Shown: positions 1 through 9,392, counted from the first letter of the stretch. The stretch: DNA of 64,000 nucleotides from Escherichia coli (GCF_003991155.1 NZ_CP031293.1), one strand, 5' to 3'. Numbers and translations: made by a program. The notes: generated from the letters alone by a model not told the origin.

Positions 1-976
1 CCATCGCCTGGAAGTCCAGCATCCCCTGAACATGTGCGACGCAGCTCTGTGCCGCTTCTTTTTGCAATCTGGCGTGTTGCTGTGGATCCTGCTGTGCAGC
101 GCGCCATTGTTCTACGCTCCAGCCCATCGGTAGGTAGCCATAAACCAGATCGTGAGCGGAAGTCTGGTCGGTCACCAGATCCGGCTTGATCGCCCCCTGA
201 CGTGCACGTTTCACCAGTTCAGGAACAATTTCCGCCGCATTGCCCAACAGCGCGATTGAAACAGCGTCTTTGCGCTCAGTATGGTATTTAATCAGCGCCA
301 GTGCATCATCGAGATCTTTCGCTTGTTTATCGACATAACGGGTACGCAGACGGAAGTCGATGCTACTTTGCTGGCACTCGATATTTAATGAACACGCCCC
401 CGCCAGAGTCGCCGCCAGCGGTTGTGCACCGCCCATACCACCTAGCCCTGCGGTCAGGATCCATTTTCCACTCAGCGAATTGTTGTAGTGCTGACGACCC
501 GCTTCAACAAAGGTTTCGAACGTTCCCTGCACAATGCCCTGACTACCGATGTAGATCCACGAGCCAGCGGTCATCTGGCCGTACATGAACAGACCTTTAC
601 GATCCAGTTCATTGAAATGATCCCAGTTGGCCCATTGCGGTACCAGGTTAGAGTTGGCAATCAATACGCGCGGCGCATCGGTATGCGTTTTAAACACGCC
701 TACGGGTTTACCGGACTGAACCAGCAGTGACTCATCAGCTTCCAGATTTTTCAGTGATTCAAGGATTTTGTCAAAACACTCCCAGTTACGTGCCGCACGA
801 CCAATACCACCATACACCACCAGATGCTGTGGATTTTCGGCAACGTCGGGATCAAGGTTGTTCTGCAACATCCGATAGGCAGCTTCGATCTGCCAGTTTT
901 TGCAGTGCAGCTGCGTACCGTGTGGCGCATGGATTACACGGCTGGTATCAATACGCGGGTCTGAAGGCTTACTCAT
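1..976 (-). CDS. hutU: Urocanate hydratase, N-terminal ~325 codons; 3' end lies beyond the window edge
   Basis: Minus-strand frame open to position 1; ATG at 974-976 preceded by GGAG; my translation [23 protein letters not shown]...[15 protein letters not shown]...[15 protein letters not shown]...[13 protein letters not shown] matches the urocanase family. Confidence 0.85.
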
Positions 977-1041
977 GAATCTTCTCCTGTTACTTGATAA
1001 AATTAAACGCTGTAATCGGTCAGAAAAAACGAACGAATGAA

Positions 1042-1060
1042 TATAGAAACGGTTTCTATA
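1042..1060. promoter_or_regulatory. Perfect 9-1-9 palindrome TATAGAAAC-G-GTTTCTATA about 70 bp upstream of the hutU start; candidate operator
   Basis: Palindrome read directly from the sequence; no match to a named operator consensus asserted. Confidence 0.3.
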
Positions 1061-1733
1061 ATTCCCGTTTATCATTTTGTATTATTAATTCATTTAGTGA
1101 ATATTGTTTGTCGTGGTATATTCACTATGAATATAAATTCAAAACCACCAACGCGTTGTATGCGAATTCAATATGCTTAATTTAACTTGTCGAAAAAGTG
1201 ATATTGTTGGCAAAATATTTTCTAATTTGAACATATGAATATGATGAGATTGCAAGATGTCAGTAATTTAATTATATGAGAAATGCGTTAATAACGACCA
1301 GATATTAGCGTAACAACAGGTGTTCCGACACCACACAGTGCGCATAACACAATGATATTTAAAATAAGATCTTCATTATTCGTCATAAAGACATGTTTTA
1401 TTATCATTAATAATCCATTTGTTTTCATCCCACTTTTGATAATTAAAAAACGGCAACAATGGATAGTTACCCGACGTAAAAACAGGCGTAAAAATAAATC
1501 TTAAAATATATCCACTGGAAATTATCATTTTTCATATTTTACAATCTGGCGTCGATAACTGACCCCTTTTATAACACCCCCGTTTGTTAATAGTCTTTTT
1601 TATCTTGTATTGATCGTCATTGCTGCATACACTACGCGCGTTTTCTTTCCCTTTTGCTGGCTGCTGACCGGAAAGACAAAATTACCCTCGCAATAAAGGG
1701 GGTTGTTTAACGTCTATATTTCAGGACAGCGTT

Positions 1734-3131
1734 ATGCATCATCTTTCAAGGCTTGATAAAGCCTTTCTGCGCAAAGGGATCCAACTTTCCCGCGCCAACA
1801 ATATTGTTTCATTATGTCGTCCATCAGGAGCCAGTGCCCACGTACTGCTGCCGGACGAACTGCCGCTGGAAGAAAAAGCAGTGACACAACTGCTTGATTT
1901 TGCAGAAGTGAAGATACCAGACCATCCAGGTTACGTACGCCAGACCTGTGCGACGCCAGATTTTCATCCCGGCAATGGCGTCCCCGTTGGCGCGGTAGTC
2001 GCCTCTACGCCGGATTTAGTCATTCCTGCGGCCATCGGCACCGATATTTCTTGTGGCATGCGGCTGCTGACGACCGGATTAACACTTGAGCAAGCCGAAG
2101 CGAATAAAGAAATAATCACTCAGCGGTTAACACAAGTGTTACTGCAAAATGAGCGCGATGTTCCGTTATCCGCACGAGCGTTCACCGCGCTTTTTGATGG
2201 CGGACCGGCAGATTGCATGTCGGCCTTGCCATCAGCAGGTCTCTGGACACGTACAAATATCCCCCGAATGACGCAAGAGATTGACCGCTGCATTGGGCTT
2301 AACGAGCATAACAGTCATTCGCGTTATGCCCCACCCGCCCTACTGGTAACGGACCGCCCATTACTCCGCGATCCTTGTCTTGGTACGCCGGGTTCAGGTA
2401 ATCATTTTATTGAACTTCAGGTGGTTGATAGCGTGGTTGATCGCCATGTTGCCTGGCAACAAGGGCTGAAAACGGGCGATATTGTGGTGATGATCCACAG
2501 TGGATCGCGAGATGTTGGCTTTTACGTCGGAAGACGCTGGATGGATCGCGCCCGTGCTGAATGGCCCACCGGACATAAACATCCACAAAGCGGGTTATAT
2601 GGCCTGGCAGGCGGACTGGCGGAGGAATATCTACAAGCGATGGGAATGGCGGCGCGTTACGCGTGGTTAAATCGCGTCACAATTGCCGAAATGGTGCGCG
2701 TATGTCTTGCCAATCTCTTTCATCAGGACAATTCGCATCTGGTGGTGGATGTGCCGCATAACATCATCCTTCGCGAGCATGAAATGAATATTCATCGCAA
2801 AGGTGCAACACCGGCACGCGCGGGCAATCTGGCGTTAATCCCCGGTTCAATGGGCGATTATTCGTGGCTTGCAGTCGGTTGCGGCAACCCGGAGTGGCTG
2901 TGGTCTTGCAGTCACGGAGCAGGACGCAGCCAGCGTCGGCAGGCCATGCACTCACGCGCGACTGAAGAGTCAACGTTGCCGTGGCAATGCGTCACATTGC
3001 GCGAAGAACGGCGTATTGAAGAAGCGCCAGCTGCTTATAAAGATATTGGTCCGGTTATCGAAGCCCAACAAGAGGCCGGATTAATTCATCCAGCGGTTAG
3101 ATTCCGACCGTGGTTAACGTTTAAGGCATAA
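1734..3131 (+). CDS. RtcB-family RNA ligase paralogue (465 aa)
   Basis: ORF translation carries RtcB-type motifs: VIPAAIGTDISCGMRL, GSGNHFIELQ, IHSGSRDVG, IPGSMGDYS, CSHGAGR, AYKDIGPV; start codon uncertain (weak RBS). Confidence 0.85.
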   Translation: MHHLSRLDKAFLRKGIQLSRANNIVSLCRPSGASAHVLLPDELPLEEKAVTQLLDFAEVKIPDHPGYVRQTCATPDFHPGNGVPVGAVVASTPDLVIPAAIGTDISCGMRLLTTGLTLEQAEANKEIITQRLTQVLLQNERDVPLSARAFTALFDGGPADCMSALPSAGLWTRTNIPRMTQEIDRCIGLNEHNSHSRYAPPALLVTDRPLLRDPCLGTPGSGNHFIELQVVDSVVDRHVAWQQGLKTGDIVVMIHSGSRDVGFYVGRRWMDRARAEWPTGHKHPQSGLYGLAGGLAEEYLQAMGMAARYAWLNRVTIAEMVRVCLANLFHQDNSHLVVDVPHNIILREHEMNIHRKGATPARAGNLALIPGSMGDYSWLAVGCGNPEWLWSCSHGAGRSQRRQAMHSRATEESTLPWQCVTLREERRIEEAPAAYKDIGPVIEAQQEAGLIHPAVRFRPWLTFKA

Positions 3132-3154
3132 AAAAAGGCCATCATATGATGGCC
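3130..3154 (-). terminator. Intrinsic terminator of the sdh-suc operon, shared by convergent genes (palindrome GGCCATCAT/ATGATGGCC plus U-run on minus strand)
   Basis: 18-bp perfect palindrome 3137-3154 flanked by a 7-A run 3130-3136, which is a U-run for the minus-strand transcript. Confidence 0.65.
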
Positions 3155-3229
3155 AACCATGTCGAAACCGACAGCCCTTCGCCATTCCTGTAGAGGGAAG
3201 CGGCGAGGGCTATTTCTTATTACAGATAT
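3130..3229 (-). ncRNA. sdhX: sucD 3'UTR-derived sRNA candidate (SdhX/RybD-like)
   Basis: About 100 nt between the sucD stop and the terminator; position corresponds to the known SdhX locus in E. coli; sequence identity not verified. Confidence 0.45.
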
Positions 3230-4099
3230 TTATTTCAGAACAGTTTTCAGTGCTTCACCGATATCCGCCAGGCTGCGAACGGTTTTCACGCCTGCGGCTT
3301 CCAGAGCAGCGAATTTCTCATCCGCAGTCCCTTTCCCACCGGCAATGATCGCACCTGCGTGACCCATACGTTTGCCTTTCGGCGCAGTCACACCAGCGAT
3401 GTAACCTACAACTGGCTTGGTAACGTGCTCTTTGATGTATGCAGCCGCTTCTTCTTCAGCGCTACCACCGATCTCACCGATCATCACGATCGCTTCGGTC
3501 TGCGGATCTTTTTCGAACATTTCGAGGATGTCGATAAAGTTAGAGCCAGGGATCGGGTCGCCGCCGATACCAACACAGGTCGACTGACCGAAACCGTAAT
3601 CCGTGGTCTGTTTAACCGCTTCATAGGTCAGTGTACCGGAACGGGAAACGATACCCACTTTACCCGGTTTGTGAATGTGACCAGGCTGGATACCGATTTT
3701 GCATTCACCCGGAGTGATAACGCCCGGGCAGTTCGGGCCGATCATGCGAACGCCCGCTTCATCCAGTTTCACCTTCACGGTCAGCATATCCAGCGTCGGG
3801 ATGCCTTCAGTGATGGTGATAATCAGTTTGATGCCTGCATCAATAGCTTCCAGAATGGAGTCTTTGCAGAACGGTGCTGGTACGTAGATAACAGAAGCGG
3901 TAGCGCCAGTAGCAGCAACAGCTTCACGCACGGTGTTGAACACCGGCAGGCCGAGGTGGGTGGTGCCGCCTTTACCTGGGGTTACGCCGCCAACCATTTT
4001 AGTGCCGTATGCAATAGCCTGTTCTGAGTGGAAAGTCCCCTGGCTACCGGTAAAGCCCTGGCAGATAACCTTGGTGTTTTTATCAATTAAAATGGACAT
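3230..4099 (-). CDS. sucD: Succinyl-CoA synthetase alpha subunit
   Basis: 289-aa ORF; translation [33 protein letters not shown]... Confidence 0.97.
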
Positions 4100-6590: not shown

Positions 6591-9392
6591 TTATTCGACG
6601 TTCAGCGCGTCATTAACCAGATCTTGTTGCTGTTTCTGGTGAACGGACATATACCCTACCGCCGGAGAGGCGGAGGCCGGGCGGCCTGCATAACGCAGAG
6701 AAGCCCCAAACGGAATCACTTCACGGAAATGATGCTGGCTGCAGTACCATGCGCCCTGATTGAGCGGCTCTTCCTGGCACCAGACAAAATCCTTGACGTG
6801 AGCAAACTGCTGCAACACTTCCTGCATCGCTTTATGCGGGAACGGGTAGAGTTGCTCGATACGCACAATGGCGACATCGTGTTGATTGTTCTTACGACGC
6901 TGTTCCAGCAGGTCGTAATAAACCTTACCAGAACACATCACTACGCGCTTCACGCCCTTCGGATCAAGCTCGTCGATTTCACCGATGGCTGGCAGGAAGG
7001 TGCCGTTCGCCAGTTCTTCGAGGCTGGAAACCGCCAGCGGATGACGCAGCAGGGATTTCGGCGACATCACGACCAGCGGACGACGCATCCCGCGCAGCGC
7101 CTGACGACGCAGCATGTGGTAAACCTGTGCCGGGGTAGACGGTACGCACACCTGCATGTTTTGCTCAGCGCAAAGTTGCAGATAACGTTCCAGACGCGCG
7201 GAGGAGTGCTCCGGCCCCTGCCCTTCGTAACCGTGCGGCAGCAACATCACCAGACCACACATCCGGCCCCATTTCTGCTCGCCAGAGGAGATGAACTGGT
7301 CGATAACCACCTGAGCACCGTTGGCGAAGTCACCGAATTGCGCTTCCCAGATAGTCAGAGTGCGTGGTTCTGCGGTGGCATAACCGTATTCAAACGCCAG
7401 TACGGCTTCTTCAGACAGTACGGAGTCCCAGACACGGAACGCGCCCTGGCCGTTATGGATGTGTTGCAGCGGCGTGTAAGTGGAACCGTTAGACTGGTTG
7501 TGGATCACCGCGTGGCGGTGGAAGAAGGTACCGCGACCGGAGTCTTCACCCGACAGGCGAACCGGAATGCCTTCGTCAACCAGCGTGGCGTAAGCGAGGT
7601 TTTCCGCGCCGCCCCAGTCGAACAGTTTCTCACCAGCAGCCATCGCCTGGCGATCGCCATAAATCTTGGCAACGCGAGACTGCATTTCAACTGCTTCCGG
7701 CACCGTGCTGATGCGTTTAGCCAGTTCCTGCAGGCGCTTCATCTCAACTTTGTTCGGGTACTCTTCGTCCCATTCGTGGTTGAGGTACGGCGACCAGGTG
7801 AAAGAGTGCATGTTCATCGGACGCCACTCTGCTACAACGCAATCGCCAGCATCCAGCGCATCGCGGTACAGGTTAACCATCTCGGTGGCATCTTCCAGCG
7901 TCGCGACTTTTTCCTGCTCCAGCTTGTCAGCATAGATTTTGCGCGGCGTCGGATGTTTTTTGATTTTCTGATACATCAGCGGCTGGGTTGCGCTCGGCTC
8001 GTCGGCTTCGTTGTGGCCGTGACGGCGGTAGCACACCAGGTCGATGAAGACATCACGTTTAAAGGTGTTACGGAAATCGAGCGCCAGACGGGTCACAAAG
8101 GCAACGGCTTCCGGATCATCCGCGTTTACGTGGAAAATCGGTGCCTGAACCATCTTACCGATATCAGTACAGTACGGTGTAGAACGAGCATCCAGCGGAT
8201 TAGAGGTGGTGAAGCCAACCTGGTTGTTGATAACGATACGTACCGTACCGCCAACTTCATAACCACGCGCTTTCGACATGTTCAGGGTTTCCTGAACCAC
8301 GCCCTGCCCGGTCACTGCGGCGTCACCGTGGATGGTGATTGGCAGCACTTTGTTGCTGCTCGGCTCATCGAGTCTGTCCAGACGGGCACGAACAGAACCG
8401 ATAACTACCGGGCTGACAATCTCAAGGTGAGACGGGTTAAACGCCAGCGCCAGGTGCACCAGGCCGCCATCGGTCTGGAAGTCAGACGAGAAGCCCATGT
8501 GGTATTTCACGTCGCCCGTGCCGAGGTGTTCTTTATGTTTACCGGCAAACTCGTCGAACAAGTCTTGCGGTTTTTTACCCAGCACGTTCACCAGCACGTT
8601 CAGACGACCACGGTGCGCCATCCCGAGAACCACTTCGCGGGTGCCGCTGTTGCCAGCGTGGCGGATCATCTCTTTAAGCATCGGGATTAACGCGTCACCG
8701 CCTTCCAGCGAGAAGCGTTTTGCGCCAGGGAATTTTGCGCCGAGGTAACGTTCAAGGCCTTCAGCGGCGGTCAGTTCGCTTAAGAAGCGTTTTTTCTCTT
8801 CGCTATTGAAAGTCGCGCGACCAGACTCGATACGCTGTTGGATCCAGCGTTTTTCTTCGGTGCTGGTGATGTGCATATACTCGGCACCAATCGGGCCGCA
8901 GTAGGTTTGCTTGAGGGCTTCCAGCAGCTCGCCGAGTTTCATGGTTTCTTTGCCGCTGGCAAATGAACCGACGTTGAAGGTCTCCTGGAAGTCTGCTTCG
9001 GTCAGATCGTGGAAAGACGGATCCAGATCGGCCACTTTATCTTGCTGCCACAGTCCCAGCGGATCGAGATTCGCATGCTGGTGACCACGGAAGCGGTATG
9101 CGTTAATGAGCTGCAGGACTTTAACCTGCTTCACATTGGTGTCAGGGTCGGAGATCGTTGAAGAGTAACGTGAAGCGTCTTTCGCCAGGCGGCGGAAATA
9201 TTCACGCGTTTGAGAGTGGAATTGATCCGGTTTGACTCCCGTACCAGGTAACTGCTGGAACGTCGAACGCCAGTTAGCGTCAACCGAGTCAGGATCGGTT
9301 AAGAAGTCTTCATAGAGCTGTTCTATCCAGCTCTGGTTTGCGCCAGAGAGGTAAGAAGAGTCCAACCAGGCTTTCAAAGCGCTGTTCTGCAT
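6591..9392 (-). CDS. sucA: 2-oxoglutarate dehydrogenase E1
   Basis: 933-aa [34 protein letters not shown]... Confidence 0.97.

What the first reader, a model, noticed from the sequence alone, without database searches (positions are those of the whole stretch)
977..1733. 757-bp AT-rich non-coding spacer with a perfect 19-bp palindrome between divergent hutU and the RtcB-like gene
The spacer is visibly far more AT-rich than the flanking genes, a common signature of horizontally acquired or H-NS-silenced DNA. It contains TATAGAAACGGTTTCTATA (1042–1060) and a second inverted repeat GTGAATAT...ATATTCAC near 1099–1127. The only ORF in the track here (994–1185) is low-complexity and lacks an RBS. 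The region probably carries the control elements for both divergent genes and could also hide a small RNA or small protein.
Basis: seen in the sequence. Interest (0 to 1): 0.5.

Follow-up and report, generated by a model that had tools for sequence, protein, structure and literature searches.

The report
Control region of Escherichia hut operon
This AT-rich gap is the control region of a rare histidine-utilisation operon in E. coli that lacks the usual HutC repressor. The eye-catching 19-bp palindrome is not conserved, whereas a 108-bp block and a 70-nt hairpin next to it are.

Summary
The spacer 977-1733 has 32.5% GC against 51.7% for the window. It holds a 9+1+9 palindrome (1042-1060) and a 10-nt inverted repeat (1095-1104/1118-1127).

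The spacer has three modules:
- 977-1275 belongs to a hutU-permease-hutD-hutI-hutG-HAL operon found in 144 of 5426 complete E. coli genomes and in E. albertii, E. marmotae and cryptic clades.
- About 1276-1625 is fast-evolving AT-rich filler.
- 1626-1733 is the RtcB-proximal segment, shared with strains that lack hut.

No hutC gene and no HutC operator (TGTA-N2-TACA) accompany this operon. The palindrome is perfect only in E. coli, varies at about the synonymous-site rate (37% against 41%), and arises in 3.6% of shuffles. It is not a conserved operator.

Two elements are constrained. One is a 108-bp block (1168-1275, 5.6% variable sites).

Small ORFs show no coding signal, and there is no Rfam match. 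The promoter and the regulator remain unidentified. This is an ordinary kind of element, with a modestly interesting HutC-less variant.

The parts
1..975 (-). 5' part of hutU (urocanate hydratase), first gene of the operon hutU-permease-hutD-hutI-hutG-HAL
   Evidence: ORF and translation. It is annotated in an identical E. coli record. The protein is 100% identical to cluster P0001.
977..1012 (-). Conserved segment next to the ribosome-binding site. AGGAG lies at 987-983, 7 nt before the ATG.
   Evidence: 5 of 36 sites vary among E. coli, E. marmotae and E. albertii. The sequence was read directly.
1020..1028 (-). UUUUUUCUG run, complementary to the ribosome-binding site CAGGAGAA. It could mask that site. 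Inferred only.
   Evidence: It is paired with the ribosome-binding site in the five-sequence consensus fold. It is paired instead with the upstream C(A/G)GG(A/G)A in the eleven-sequence fold. There are no double changes, so this is only a prediction.
1042..1060 (.). 19-bp 9+1+9 palindrome TATAGAAACGGTTTCTATA, a lineage-specific feature
   Evidence: It is perfect in E. coli and the E. coli-like MOD1-EC5189. It is degenerate in E2586 (TATATAAACCGTTTCTGTA), E. marmotae (TATATAAGCCGTTTCTGTA) and E. albertii (TAGATAATCGGTTTCAGTG). 7 of 19 sites vary, against 41% at hutU third codon positions. An equal or longer repeat arises in 3.6% of shuffles. There is no second copy in the window or the island.
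1075..1144 (-). 70-nt imperfect hairpin in the hutU-sense strand. The arms are built from alternating TGAAT/ATTCA pentamers.
   Evidence: The same nested fold appears in all lineages. It has 20 pairs and 140 of 140 cells are paired. Two pairs show compensatory changes (A-U/G.U/G-C and G-C/A-U). Only 4 of 500 shuffles reach the observed covariation score, and slid controls pair 23-46% of cells. Unpaired positions vary far more than paired ones. A covariance model finds no other copy.
1145..1167 (-). Variable, slightly GC-richer linker ending at a U/T run
   Evidence: 13 of 23 sites vary. There is no significant hairpin, with z between -0.3 and +0.6, so it is not an intrinsic terminator.
1168..1275 (.). 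108-bp highly conserved block, the most constrained part of the spacer. It probably holds the promoter and activator sites of the hut operon, or the unstructured 5' end of its leader.
   Evidence: 6 of 108 sites vary among three species, against 40.8% at hutU third codon positions and 3.5% at first positions (alignments). As RNA it is less structured than shuffles, z +1.5. There is no paralogue in E. coli genomes or plasmids, and no homologue in 80 related hut loci.
1276..1625 (.). Fast-evolving AT-rich filler
   Evidence: 53-58% of the aligned sites between 1276 and 1320 vary. Columns are poorly conserved and indels occur between 1280 and 1550. Within E. coli, substitutions and 4- and 12-bp indels cluster here. 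ORFs in it have no family match.
1626..1733 (+). RtcB-proximal segment, presumably the promoter and leader of the RtcB-family gene
   Evidence: This is the only part of the spacer shared (98-99% identity) with 151 E. coli genomes that lack the hut cluster. In those genomes it faces a LysR-type regulator gene.
1734..3131 (+). RtcB-family gene (465 aa)
   Evidence: ORF, annotation and Pfam RtcB in relatives.

Best explanation
The spacer is a composite of three pieces.
1. **977-1275** is the cis-regulatory region of an old, patchily retained Escherichia hut operon (hutU-permease-hutD-hutI-hutG-HAL). This operon has no HutC repressor and no HutC operator.
2. **About 1276-1625** is unconstrained AT-rich filler.
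3. **1626-1733** is the control region of the RtcB-family gene.

I infer that hut transcription starts in or at the edge of the conserved 108-bp block (1168-1275). The promoter would be a weak sigma-70 promoter that needs an activator, and the block would be where chromosomally encoded global regulators act. The mRNA would then carry a leader of about 170-290 nt that includes the conserved 70-nt hairpin (1075-1144), and possibly an element that masks the ribosome-binding site.

The perfect 19-bp palindrome arose within the E. coli lineage, in the least constrained part of that leader. It is not the ancestral control site. At most it adds an extra hairpin or a lineage-specific protein site.

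**Shown:** the modularity, the absence of hutC and its operator, the conservation pattern, and the covariation in the hairpin.
**Inferred:** the position of the promoter, that the hairpin is transcribed, and what binds the block.
For: - **Distribution and modularity:** the full spacer is in 144 of 5426 genomes, and only the last 108 bp is in 151 more that lack hut. E. marmotae keeps the hutU-proximal part without RtcB.
- **Same locus across species:** E. albertii, E. marmotae and the cryptic clades carry the cluster next to sucD.
- **No HutC near the operon:** there is no hutC in any Escherichia locus, against 63 of 80 related loci. Enterobacterial-type hutC DNA occurs only on 13 plasmids and on no chromosome.
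- **No HutC operator:** there is no TGTA-N2-TACA site in the spacer. The related loci carry it about 80-120 bp upstream of hutU. The consensus is taken from PMC12977541.
- **Graded constraint:** fraction of variable sites by segment, against 40.8% at hutU third codon positions.

| Segment | Variable sites |
|---|---|
| Block 1168-1275 | 5.6% |
| Segment next to the ribosome-binding site | 14% |
| Hairpin | 26% |
| Palindrome | 37% |
| Linker and distal part | 53-57% |

- **Hairpin:** all pair cells are kept and two pairs show compensatory changes. The G.U pairs fit only the hutU-sense strand. In E. coli the sense strand folds better than the antisense strand, z -4.5 against -2.3.
- **Promoter signals:** a -10-like NATAAT sits exactly at the upstream edge of the block in every lineage. 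Several weak but invariant -35/-10 pairs lie inside the block.
Against: - No promoter candidate scores well (at most about 8 bits), and the consensus scan lists none in the block.
- Matches to CRP, NAC and ARG-box consensus sequences are weak or no more frequent than chance, and the consensus sequences came from memory.
- The covariation rests on about six substitutions in four or five lineages.
- One Logan contig (L109) breaks a stem pair.
- The hairpin z-scores are weak outside E. coli, -1.9 and -0.8.
- A hutC of distant origin elsewhere in these genomes would escape a DNA-level search.
- No transcription data are available.
Confidence: 0.55

Rival explanations
1. The 19-bp palindrome is the operator of a dedicated dimeric repressor of hutU.
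For: It is a perfect dyad centred 76 bp upstream of the ATG, about where related loci carry their HutC operator. It is invariant in all E. coli variants examined.
Against: No regulator gene lies in the island, and there is no hutC nearby or on hut-positive chromosomes. The dyad is degenerate in E2586, E. marmotae and E. albertii, and varies at the synonymous rate. An equal repeat arises in 3.6% of shuffles. There is no second copy in the island or the window.
Confidence: 0.1
2. The conserved block 1168-1275 is an independent small RNA gene on one of the two strands, rather than hut promoter DNA.
For: Conservation is very strong at the sequence level and starts exactly at a -10-like NATAAT. The best invariant promoter-like pair in the region points along the plus strand: TTGGCA, 16 nt, GAACAT.
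Against: There is no Rfam match. There is no terminator after the block on either strand. The RNA is less structured than shuffles. The DNA downstream on the plus strand is unconstrained.
Confidence: 0.1
3. The whole spacer is H-NS-bound, silenced filler with no specific control elements. The repeats are chance products of AT-rich DNA.
For: GC is about 30% over 650 bp. The repeats are only marginally significant. Promoter-like sites occur at the shuffled expectation, 4 found against 4.1 expected. The distal half evolves freely.
Against: The 108-bp block varies seven-fold less than synonymous sites, and the hairpin keeps every pair. That pattern requires sequence-specific selection in 977-1275.
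Confidence: 0.1
4. The spacer encodes a small protein, for example ORF 1037-1180 on the plus strand (47 aa) or ORF 994-1185.
For: The frame starting at 1037 stays open for at least 30 codons in every lineage.
Against: Variable sites are spread evenly over codon positions, 9/11/11 and 22/19/24. ORF lengths differ between lineages: 30, 47, 49 and 69 aa. No Shine-Dalgarno sequence precedes the start. There is no NCBIfam match. The open frame overlaps the constrained hairpin, which explains why it persists.
Confidence: 0.03

Closest known systems
PhutU of Pseudomonas, and the upstream regions of most proteobacterial hutU genes: HutC (GntR/HutC family) operator TGTA-N2-TACA, relieved by urocanate (PMC12977541, PMC8034625)
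   Same: It is an upstream control region of a hutU-led histidine and urocanate catabolic operon. A dyad sits at a similar distance from the start codon.
   Different: There is no hutC gene and no TGTA-N2-TACA site here. There is no sigma-54 promoter match. The dyad has a different sequence and is not conserved.
hut(P) region of Klebsiella aerogenes and Salmonella hutUH: a weak promoter activated by CAP-cAMP or NAC, overlapped by an opposing promoter at which RNA polymerase acts as a repressor (Nieuwkoop and Bender 1988, as summarised in PMC7054387). Positions of the CAP and NAC sites are from my own knowledge.
   Same: The host is an enteric bacterium and the predicted core promoter is weak. 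TTGCCAA/TTGGCAA could serve as a shared -35 element for two opposing weak promoters. One ATA-N9-TAT site lies at 1058-1072.
   Different: There is no sequence similarity to any other hut locus examined. The NAC- and CRP-like matches are at chance level, and the NAC-like one is lost in E. albertii. hutC is absent. The gene order differs, with hutU first and a divergent 556-aa ammonia-lyase last.
AT-rich 'promoter islands' and H-NS-silenced DNA next to horizontally acquired E. coli genes (PMC7054387)
   Same: It is a long, very AT-rich intergenic tract beside accessory genes, with many weak promoter-like sites.
   Different: Promoter-like sites are not enriched over shuffles. Part of the tract is under strong sequence-specific constraint. 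The accessory genes are old residents of the genus.
Long structured leaders of catabolic operons controlled after initiation, for example Bacillus hut with HutP (PMC2425495) and the E. coli tna leader (own knowledge)
   Same: This is how it might work: there may be a long leader with a conserved hairpin between the promoter and the first catabolic gene, and no DNA-binding repressor gene in the operon.
   Different: No terminator follows the hairpin. There is no leader peptide with a ribosome-binding site or a conserved frame. Whether a hutP-like gene is present was not tested.

Membership tests
HutC-operated hut promoter | A hutC (GntR/HutC) gene in or beside the hut cluster | tested here: not met
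   Annotated clusters contain none. tblastn with Rahnella HutC finds only MngR (26% identity) in Escherichia loci, but finds a homologue in 63 of 80 related loci. Enterobacterial hutC DNA occurs only on 13 plasmids.
HutC-operated hut promoter | Operator TGTA-N2-TACA upstream of hutU | tested here: not met
   There is no match with at most one mismatch in 977-1733. The motif is present upstream of hutU in many related loci.
HutC-operated hut promoter | hut catabolic genes downstream | tested here: met
   hutU, NCS1-type permease, HutD, hutI, hutG and a HAL-family lyase.
CAP/NAC-activated enteric hutUH promoter | NAC site ATA-N9-TAT and a CRP site at activating positions relative to the transcription start | tested here: inconclusive
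   ATA-N9-TAT lies at 1058-1072, but three such sites occur in 800 bp, as chance would give, and it is lost in E. albertii. The best CRP-like sites have 5-6 mismatches of 16. The transcription start is unknown.
H-NS-silenced xenogeneic DNA | GC far below the genome average | tested here: met
   0.325 against 0.517.
H-NS-silenced xenogeneic DNA | Recent foreign origin of the AT-rich tract | tested here: not met
   The cluster and spacer lie at the same site in four or more Escherichia species. The hut genes have 0.48-0.57 GC, and the hut-less allele is equally AT-rich. hutU itself is closest to betaproteobacterial genes at 84-89%, so the acquisition is old.
H-NS-silenced xenogeneic DNA | H-NS occupancy and derepression in an hns mutant | not testable with these tools
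   This needs ChIP or expression data.
Described RNA family (Rfam 15) | Match to a covariance model | tested here: not met
   There is no match at E up to 1 in 700-3400. There is none in the spacers of E. marmotae, E. albertii or E2586.
Intrinsic terminator or attenuator | GC-rich hairpin followed directly by a U tract, upstream of the regulated gene | tested here: not met
   The three terminator-like sites (1332-1319, 1471-1452, 1700-1685, all on the minus strand) lie outside the conserved part. The linker before the U run does not fold better than shuffles. The 70-nt hairpin is followed by A-rich sequence.
Structured cis-acting 5' leader RNA | Base pairs kept through compensatory changes | tested here: met
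   140 of 140 cells are paired. Two pairs changed on both sides. Only 4 of 500 shuffles reach the score.
Structured cis-acting 5' leader RNA | Transcribed as part of the hutU mRNA | not testable with these tools
   No transcription-start data are available, and promoter predictions are ambiguous.
Small protein gene | Ribosome-binding site, conserved frame with third-position bias, homologues | tested here: not met

The most novel reading that the evidence does not exclude
In Escherichia the hut operon has replaced HutC control with control on the leader RNA. The invariant, unstructured, G-poor 108-nt stretch and the covarying 70-nt hairpin would form a new cis-acting element. An RNA-binding protein, or conceivably a metabolite, would read it to couple histidine or urocanate availability to transcription elongation or translation of hutU.
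Probability: 0.1. Interest if true: 0.7.

Novelty: new variant of a known kind. Interest (0 to 1): 0.3.

Why it matters
Histidine utilisation is a textbook case of catabolic gene control, and in proteobacteria it is described as HutC-based. A chromosomal hut operon has been kept at one site across the genus Escherichia, including E. coli IAI39 and other clinical lineages. It has no hutC and no HutC operator, yet its upstream block is under strong constraint and its hairpin covaries. That would mean the control has been rewired, and the rewiring can be tested directly. It also bears on which E. coli strains can consume histidine or urocanate in the gut, since the cluster sits beside a methylaspartate-pathway cluster for glutamate. 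The palindrome that prompted the finding is itself of little consequence.

Tried and rejected
- **Rfam scans** of the region and of three sister-species loci found nothing in the spacer.
- **tblastx and blastn** of the spacer against 80 related hut loci found no gene remnant and no homologous control DNA.
- **Distant BLAST** against all complete E. coli genomes and against plasmids found no paralogue.
- **A metagenome scan** with a 25-mer from the block returned only four E. coli-like contigs.
- **Contexts of the closest non-Escherichia hutU genes** (87-89% identity) have unrelated upstream DNA, and one has an IclR-family regulator.
- **Small ORFs:** no NCBIfam match and no codon bias. I also considered a His-rich mini-ORF (MQSHHIHMFK) in the block. 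I dropped it because it has no ribosome-binding site and its length is not conserved.
- **Sigma-54 promoter:** no credible GG-N10-GC match.
- **Consensus scans** for CRP, NAC, ArgR, NtrC, IHF, Fur, Lrp, FNR, PurR, Cra, TyrR and MetR, all from memory. The only exact hit is an ARG-box-like TGAATATAAATTCA (1128-1141). It is a single box and part of the hairpin arm, so I do not claim it.
- **Terminator after the block:** rejected.
- **Structured RNA in the block:** rejected, z +1.5.
- **Covariance model of the hairpin:** no other copy in the window or in 18 loci.
- **Literature:** four searches found no paper on the Escherichia chromosomal hut cluster or its control.

Full report
**1. The observation**

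- **Flanking genes.** The window starts inside hutU (minus strand, ATG at 975). An RtcB-family gene runs 1734-3131 on the plus strand, followed by sucD, sucC and the rest of the suc/sdh genes.
- **GC content.** The 757-bp spacer has 32.5% GC against 51.7% for the window. 200-nt windows reach 28.5%. It is the longest low-GC tract in the 64 kb.
- **Repeats.** TATAGAAACGGTTTCTATA at 1042-1060 is a perfect 9+1+9 inverted repeat. The second repeat is TAGTGAATAT (1095-1104) and ATATTCACTA (1118-1127).
- **Chance.** Each repeat alone is only marginally unusual in DNA of this composition. Arms of at least 9 with a short loop arise in 36 of 1000 shuffles. Arms of at least 10 with a loop of up to 20 arise in 15 of 300.

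**2. Where the DNA comes from**

- The full spacer occurs once per genome in 144 of 5426 complete E. coli genomes, at 95-100% identity.
- Another 151 genomes match only the last 108 bp, window 1626-1733.
- Those 151 lack the hut genes. In them a LysR-type regulator gene faces the RtcB gene across a different 589-bp region, 481 bp of which are unrelated and just as AT-rich at 0.31 GC.
- In hut-positive strains the order is LysR, then 270 bp, then HAL-hutG-hutI-hutD-permease-hutU, then the spacer, then RtcB.
- The LysR protein is 99% identical in both kinds of strain, so it is not part of the hut insertion.

**3. Age and origin**

- Outside Escherichia, the closest hutU proteins are betaproteobacterial (Vogesella, Ottowia, Ralstonia, Hydrogenophaga) at 84-86%. 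A few metagenomic sequences reach 87-89%. Erwinia, Rahnella and Pantoea are at 76-77%.
- The cluster nevertheless sits at the same sucD-adjacent site in E. marmotae, E. albertii and several cryptic-clade isolates.
- Its genes have E. coli-like GC of 0.48-0.57, against 0.65 for Vogesella hutU.
- Synonymous divergence between the Escherichia species is ordinary: 9.7-10.2% of nucleotides, and 41% of third codon positions vary among three species.
- The acquisition is therefore old, and most E. coli have since lost the cluster. The AT-richness of the spacer is not a sign of recent arrival.

**4. No HutC system**

- HutC binds TGTA-N2-TACA and is released by urocanate (PMC12977541, PMC8034625).
- In the 80 related loci the motif occurs 48 times, often 80-120 bp upstream of hutU. 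63 of the 80 encode a HutC homologue within 10 kb.
- The Escherichia loci encode none. The only hits are MngR at 26% identity and a weak GntR-type match.
- Enterobacterial-type hutC DNA is found in 13 E. coli genomes, always on plasmids.
- The spacer has no TGTA-N2-TACA site, even with one mismatch allowed.
- Caveat: a distant hutC elsewhere on the chromosome would escape a DNA-level search.

**5. Phylogenetic footprinting**

I aligned the hutU-proximal 360 bp from E. coli variants, E. marmotae, Escherichia sp. E2586, E. albertii and others. The table gives the fraction of sites that vary among E. coli, E. marmotae and E. albertii. For comparison, hutU codon positions 1, 2 and 3 vary at 3.5%, 0.9% and 40.8%.

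| Segment | Variable sites |
|---|---|
| 977-1012 | 14% |
| 1013-1074 | 39% |
| Palindrome 1042-1060 | 37% |
| Hairpin 1075-1144 | 26% |
| Linker 1145-1167 | 57% |
| Block 1168-1275 | 5.6% |
| 1276-1320 | 53% |

- The palindrome lies in a stretch that evolves at about the neutral rate. It is perfect only in E. coli and the E. coli-like MOD1 isolate.
- The other forms are E2586 TATATAAACCGTTTCTGTA, E. marmotae TATATAAGCCGTTTCTGTA and E. albertii TAGATAATCGGTTTCAGTG.
- It has no second copy in the island or the window.
- It is not a conserved operator.

**6. The hairpin**

The same nested fold forms in every lineage.
- Counted on the alignment, it has 20 pairs, and 140 of 140 cells form standard pairs.
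- Two pairs changed on both sides: A-U, G.U and G-C in one, G-C and A-U in the other. Two more changed by wobble.
- Only 4 of 500 column shuffles reach the observed values, and slid controls pair 23-46% of cells.
- Loop and bulge positions vary freely.
- Six cells are G.U on the hutU-sense strand. They would be A.C mismatches on the plus strand, which favours an RNA read in the hutU direction.
- Limits: only about six substitutions in four or five lineages carry this signal, one Logan contig has a stem-breaking change, and z-scores outside E. coli are weak.
- A covariance model finds no other copy, and there is no Rfam match.
- The hairpin is followed by A-rich sequence, so it is not a terminator.

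**7. The 108-bp block**

- It is nearly invariant in all lineages.
- It has no paralogue in E. coli or on plasmids and no homologue at other hut loci.
- It has no internal repeats of note.
- As RNA it is less structured than shuffles.
- It is G-poor on the hutU-sense strand, 9 G against 17 C.
- No terminator follows it.
- Its ORFs are not conserved. For example, a T/G difference makes a stop codon in the sister species.
- Conservation begins exactly at a -10-like NATAAT (1276-1271, minus strand). Inside the block are weak but invariant promoter-like pairs:
  - TTCAAA, 17 nt, AACAAT;
  - TTGCCA, 17 nt, A(C/A)AAGT;
  - on the opposite strand, TTGGCA, 16 nt, GAACAT.
- None is strong, and the consensus scan lists none there.
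- I therefore infer, but cannot show, that the block holds the hut promoter and the sites of its activators, or the 5' end of the leader.

**8. Other readings**

- Small proteins are unsupported.
- H-NS binding is plausible for the 350-bp filler but cannot be tested here.
- Matches to CRP, NAC and ARG-box consensus sequences, all taken from memory, are weak or at chance frequency.

**9. Verdict**

The element is an ordinary kind of thing: divergent control DNA with AT-rich filler. The palindrome that drew attention is lineage-specific and probably unimportant. The moderately interesting result is a HutC-less hut operon kept across Escherichia, with a highly conserved upstream block and a covarying leader hairpin of unknown function.

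Noticed in passing
L001 10140-10302 (hutU-permease gap, just outside the window's left end): The 163-bp gap is 96% identical across E. coli, E. marmotae and E2586. It holds two hairpins: ACAGGCG...CGCCTGT, and GTCGAGAGA-AATA-TCTCCCGAC, whose stem changes keep or improve pairing. This is possibly a processing or stabilising site inside the operon.
   Followed up: partly
L001 4259-5929: The last gene is a 556-aa HAL/PAL/TAL-family lyase. It is only 26-32% identical to the histidine ammonia-lyases of all 80 related hut loci, while hutU, hutI and hutG are 45-86% identical. The cluster may be tuned to urocanate, since its permease is of the NCS1 type, or the lyase may have a different substrate.
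   Followed up: no
L001 1-3988 and L002 1-7519: The hut cluster lies beside genes for methylaspartate ammonia-lyase, a class I fumarate hydratase, cobO, a dicarboxylate symporter and a LysR regulator. This is a methylaspartate route for glutamate, the end product of the Hut pathway. A 2026 preprint uses hut plus methylaspartate genes as the marker of oxidative histidine fermentation (10.64898/2026.06.22.733842).
   Followed up: no
window 3132-3229, compared with L004 14160-19865: In the window strain the RtcB gene is followed directly by sucD. Other strains, both hut-positive and hut-negative, have mngB-mngA-mngR in between. The window strain has lost mngRAB.
   Followed up: no
L086 9218-10000; L097 4318-5094: E. 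marmotae has no RtcB gene between sucD and hutU. E. albertii has only a 258-aa ORF there with no Pfam match, possibly an RtcB remnant (not compared with RtcB). The RtcB gene is dispensable and is lost independently of hut.
   Followed up: partly
13 E. coli plasmids, e.g. NZ_CP026404.1 37712-38522: A separate, plasmid-borne hutC annotated as 'histidine utilization repressor', 80% identical in DNA to Rahnella hutC, occurs in 13 E. coli genomes. This may belong to a second, HutC-type hut system in the species; the neighbouring plasmid genes were not examined.
   Followed up: no
L002 about 7760-7830 (hut-less allele of the spacer): The stretch AGAAGCTTACATAAGTAAGTGACCTGAGTGAGCG resembles, from memory, the ERIC/IRU repeat consensus (sequence printed). 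I did not test this.
   Followed up: no
window 1475-1498: There is a 12-bp tandem unit CGTAAAAAYAGG. Some E. coli strains (L003) carry one extra copy. It lies in the unconstrained filler.
   Followed up: no
L001 about 4027-4050: A perfect 10-bp inverted repeat, CCATTACTTA-TTGC-TAAGTAATGG, lies about 40 bp upstream of the LysR start, between LysR and the end of the hut operon. It could be an autoregulatory site or part of a terminator.
   Followed up: no
L005 574-1271: One E. coli strain (EC19) has an IS1 inserted between hutU and the permease gene.
   Followed up: no
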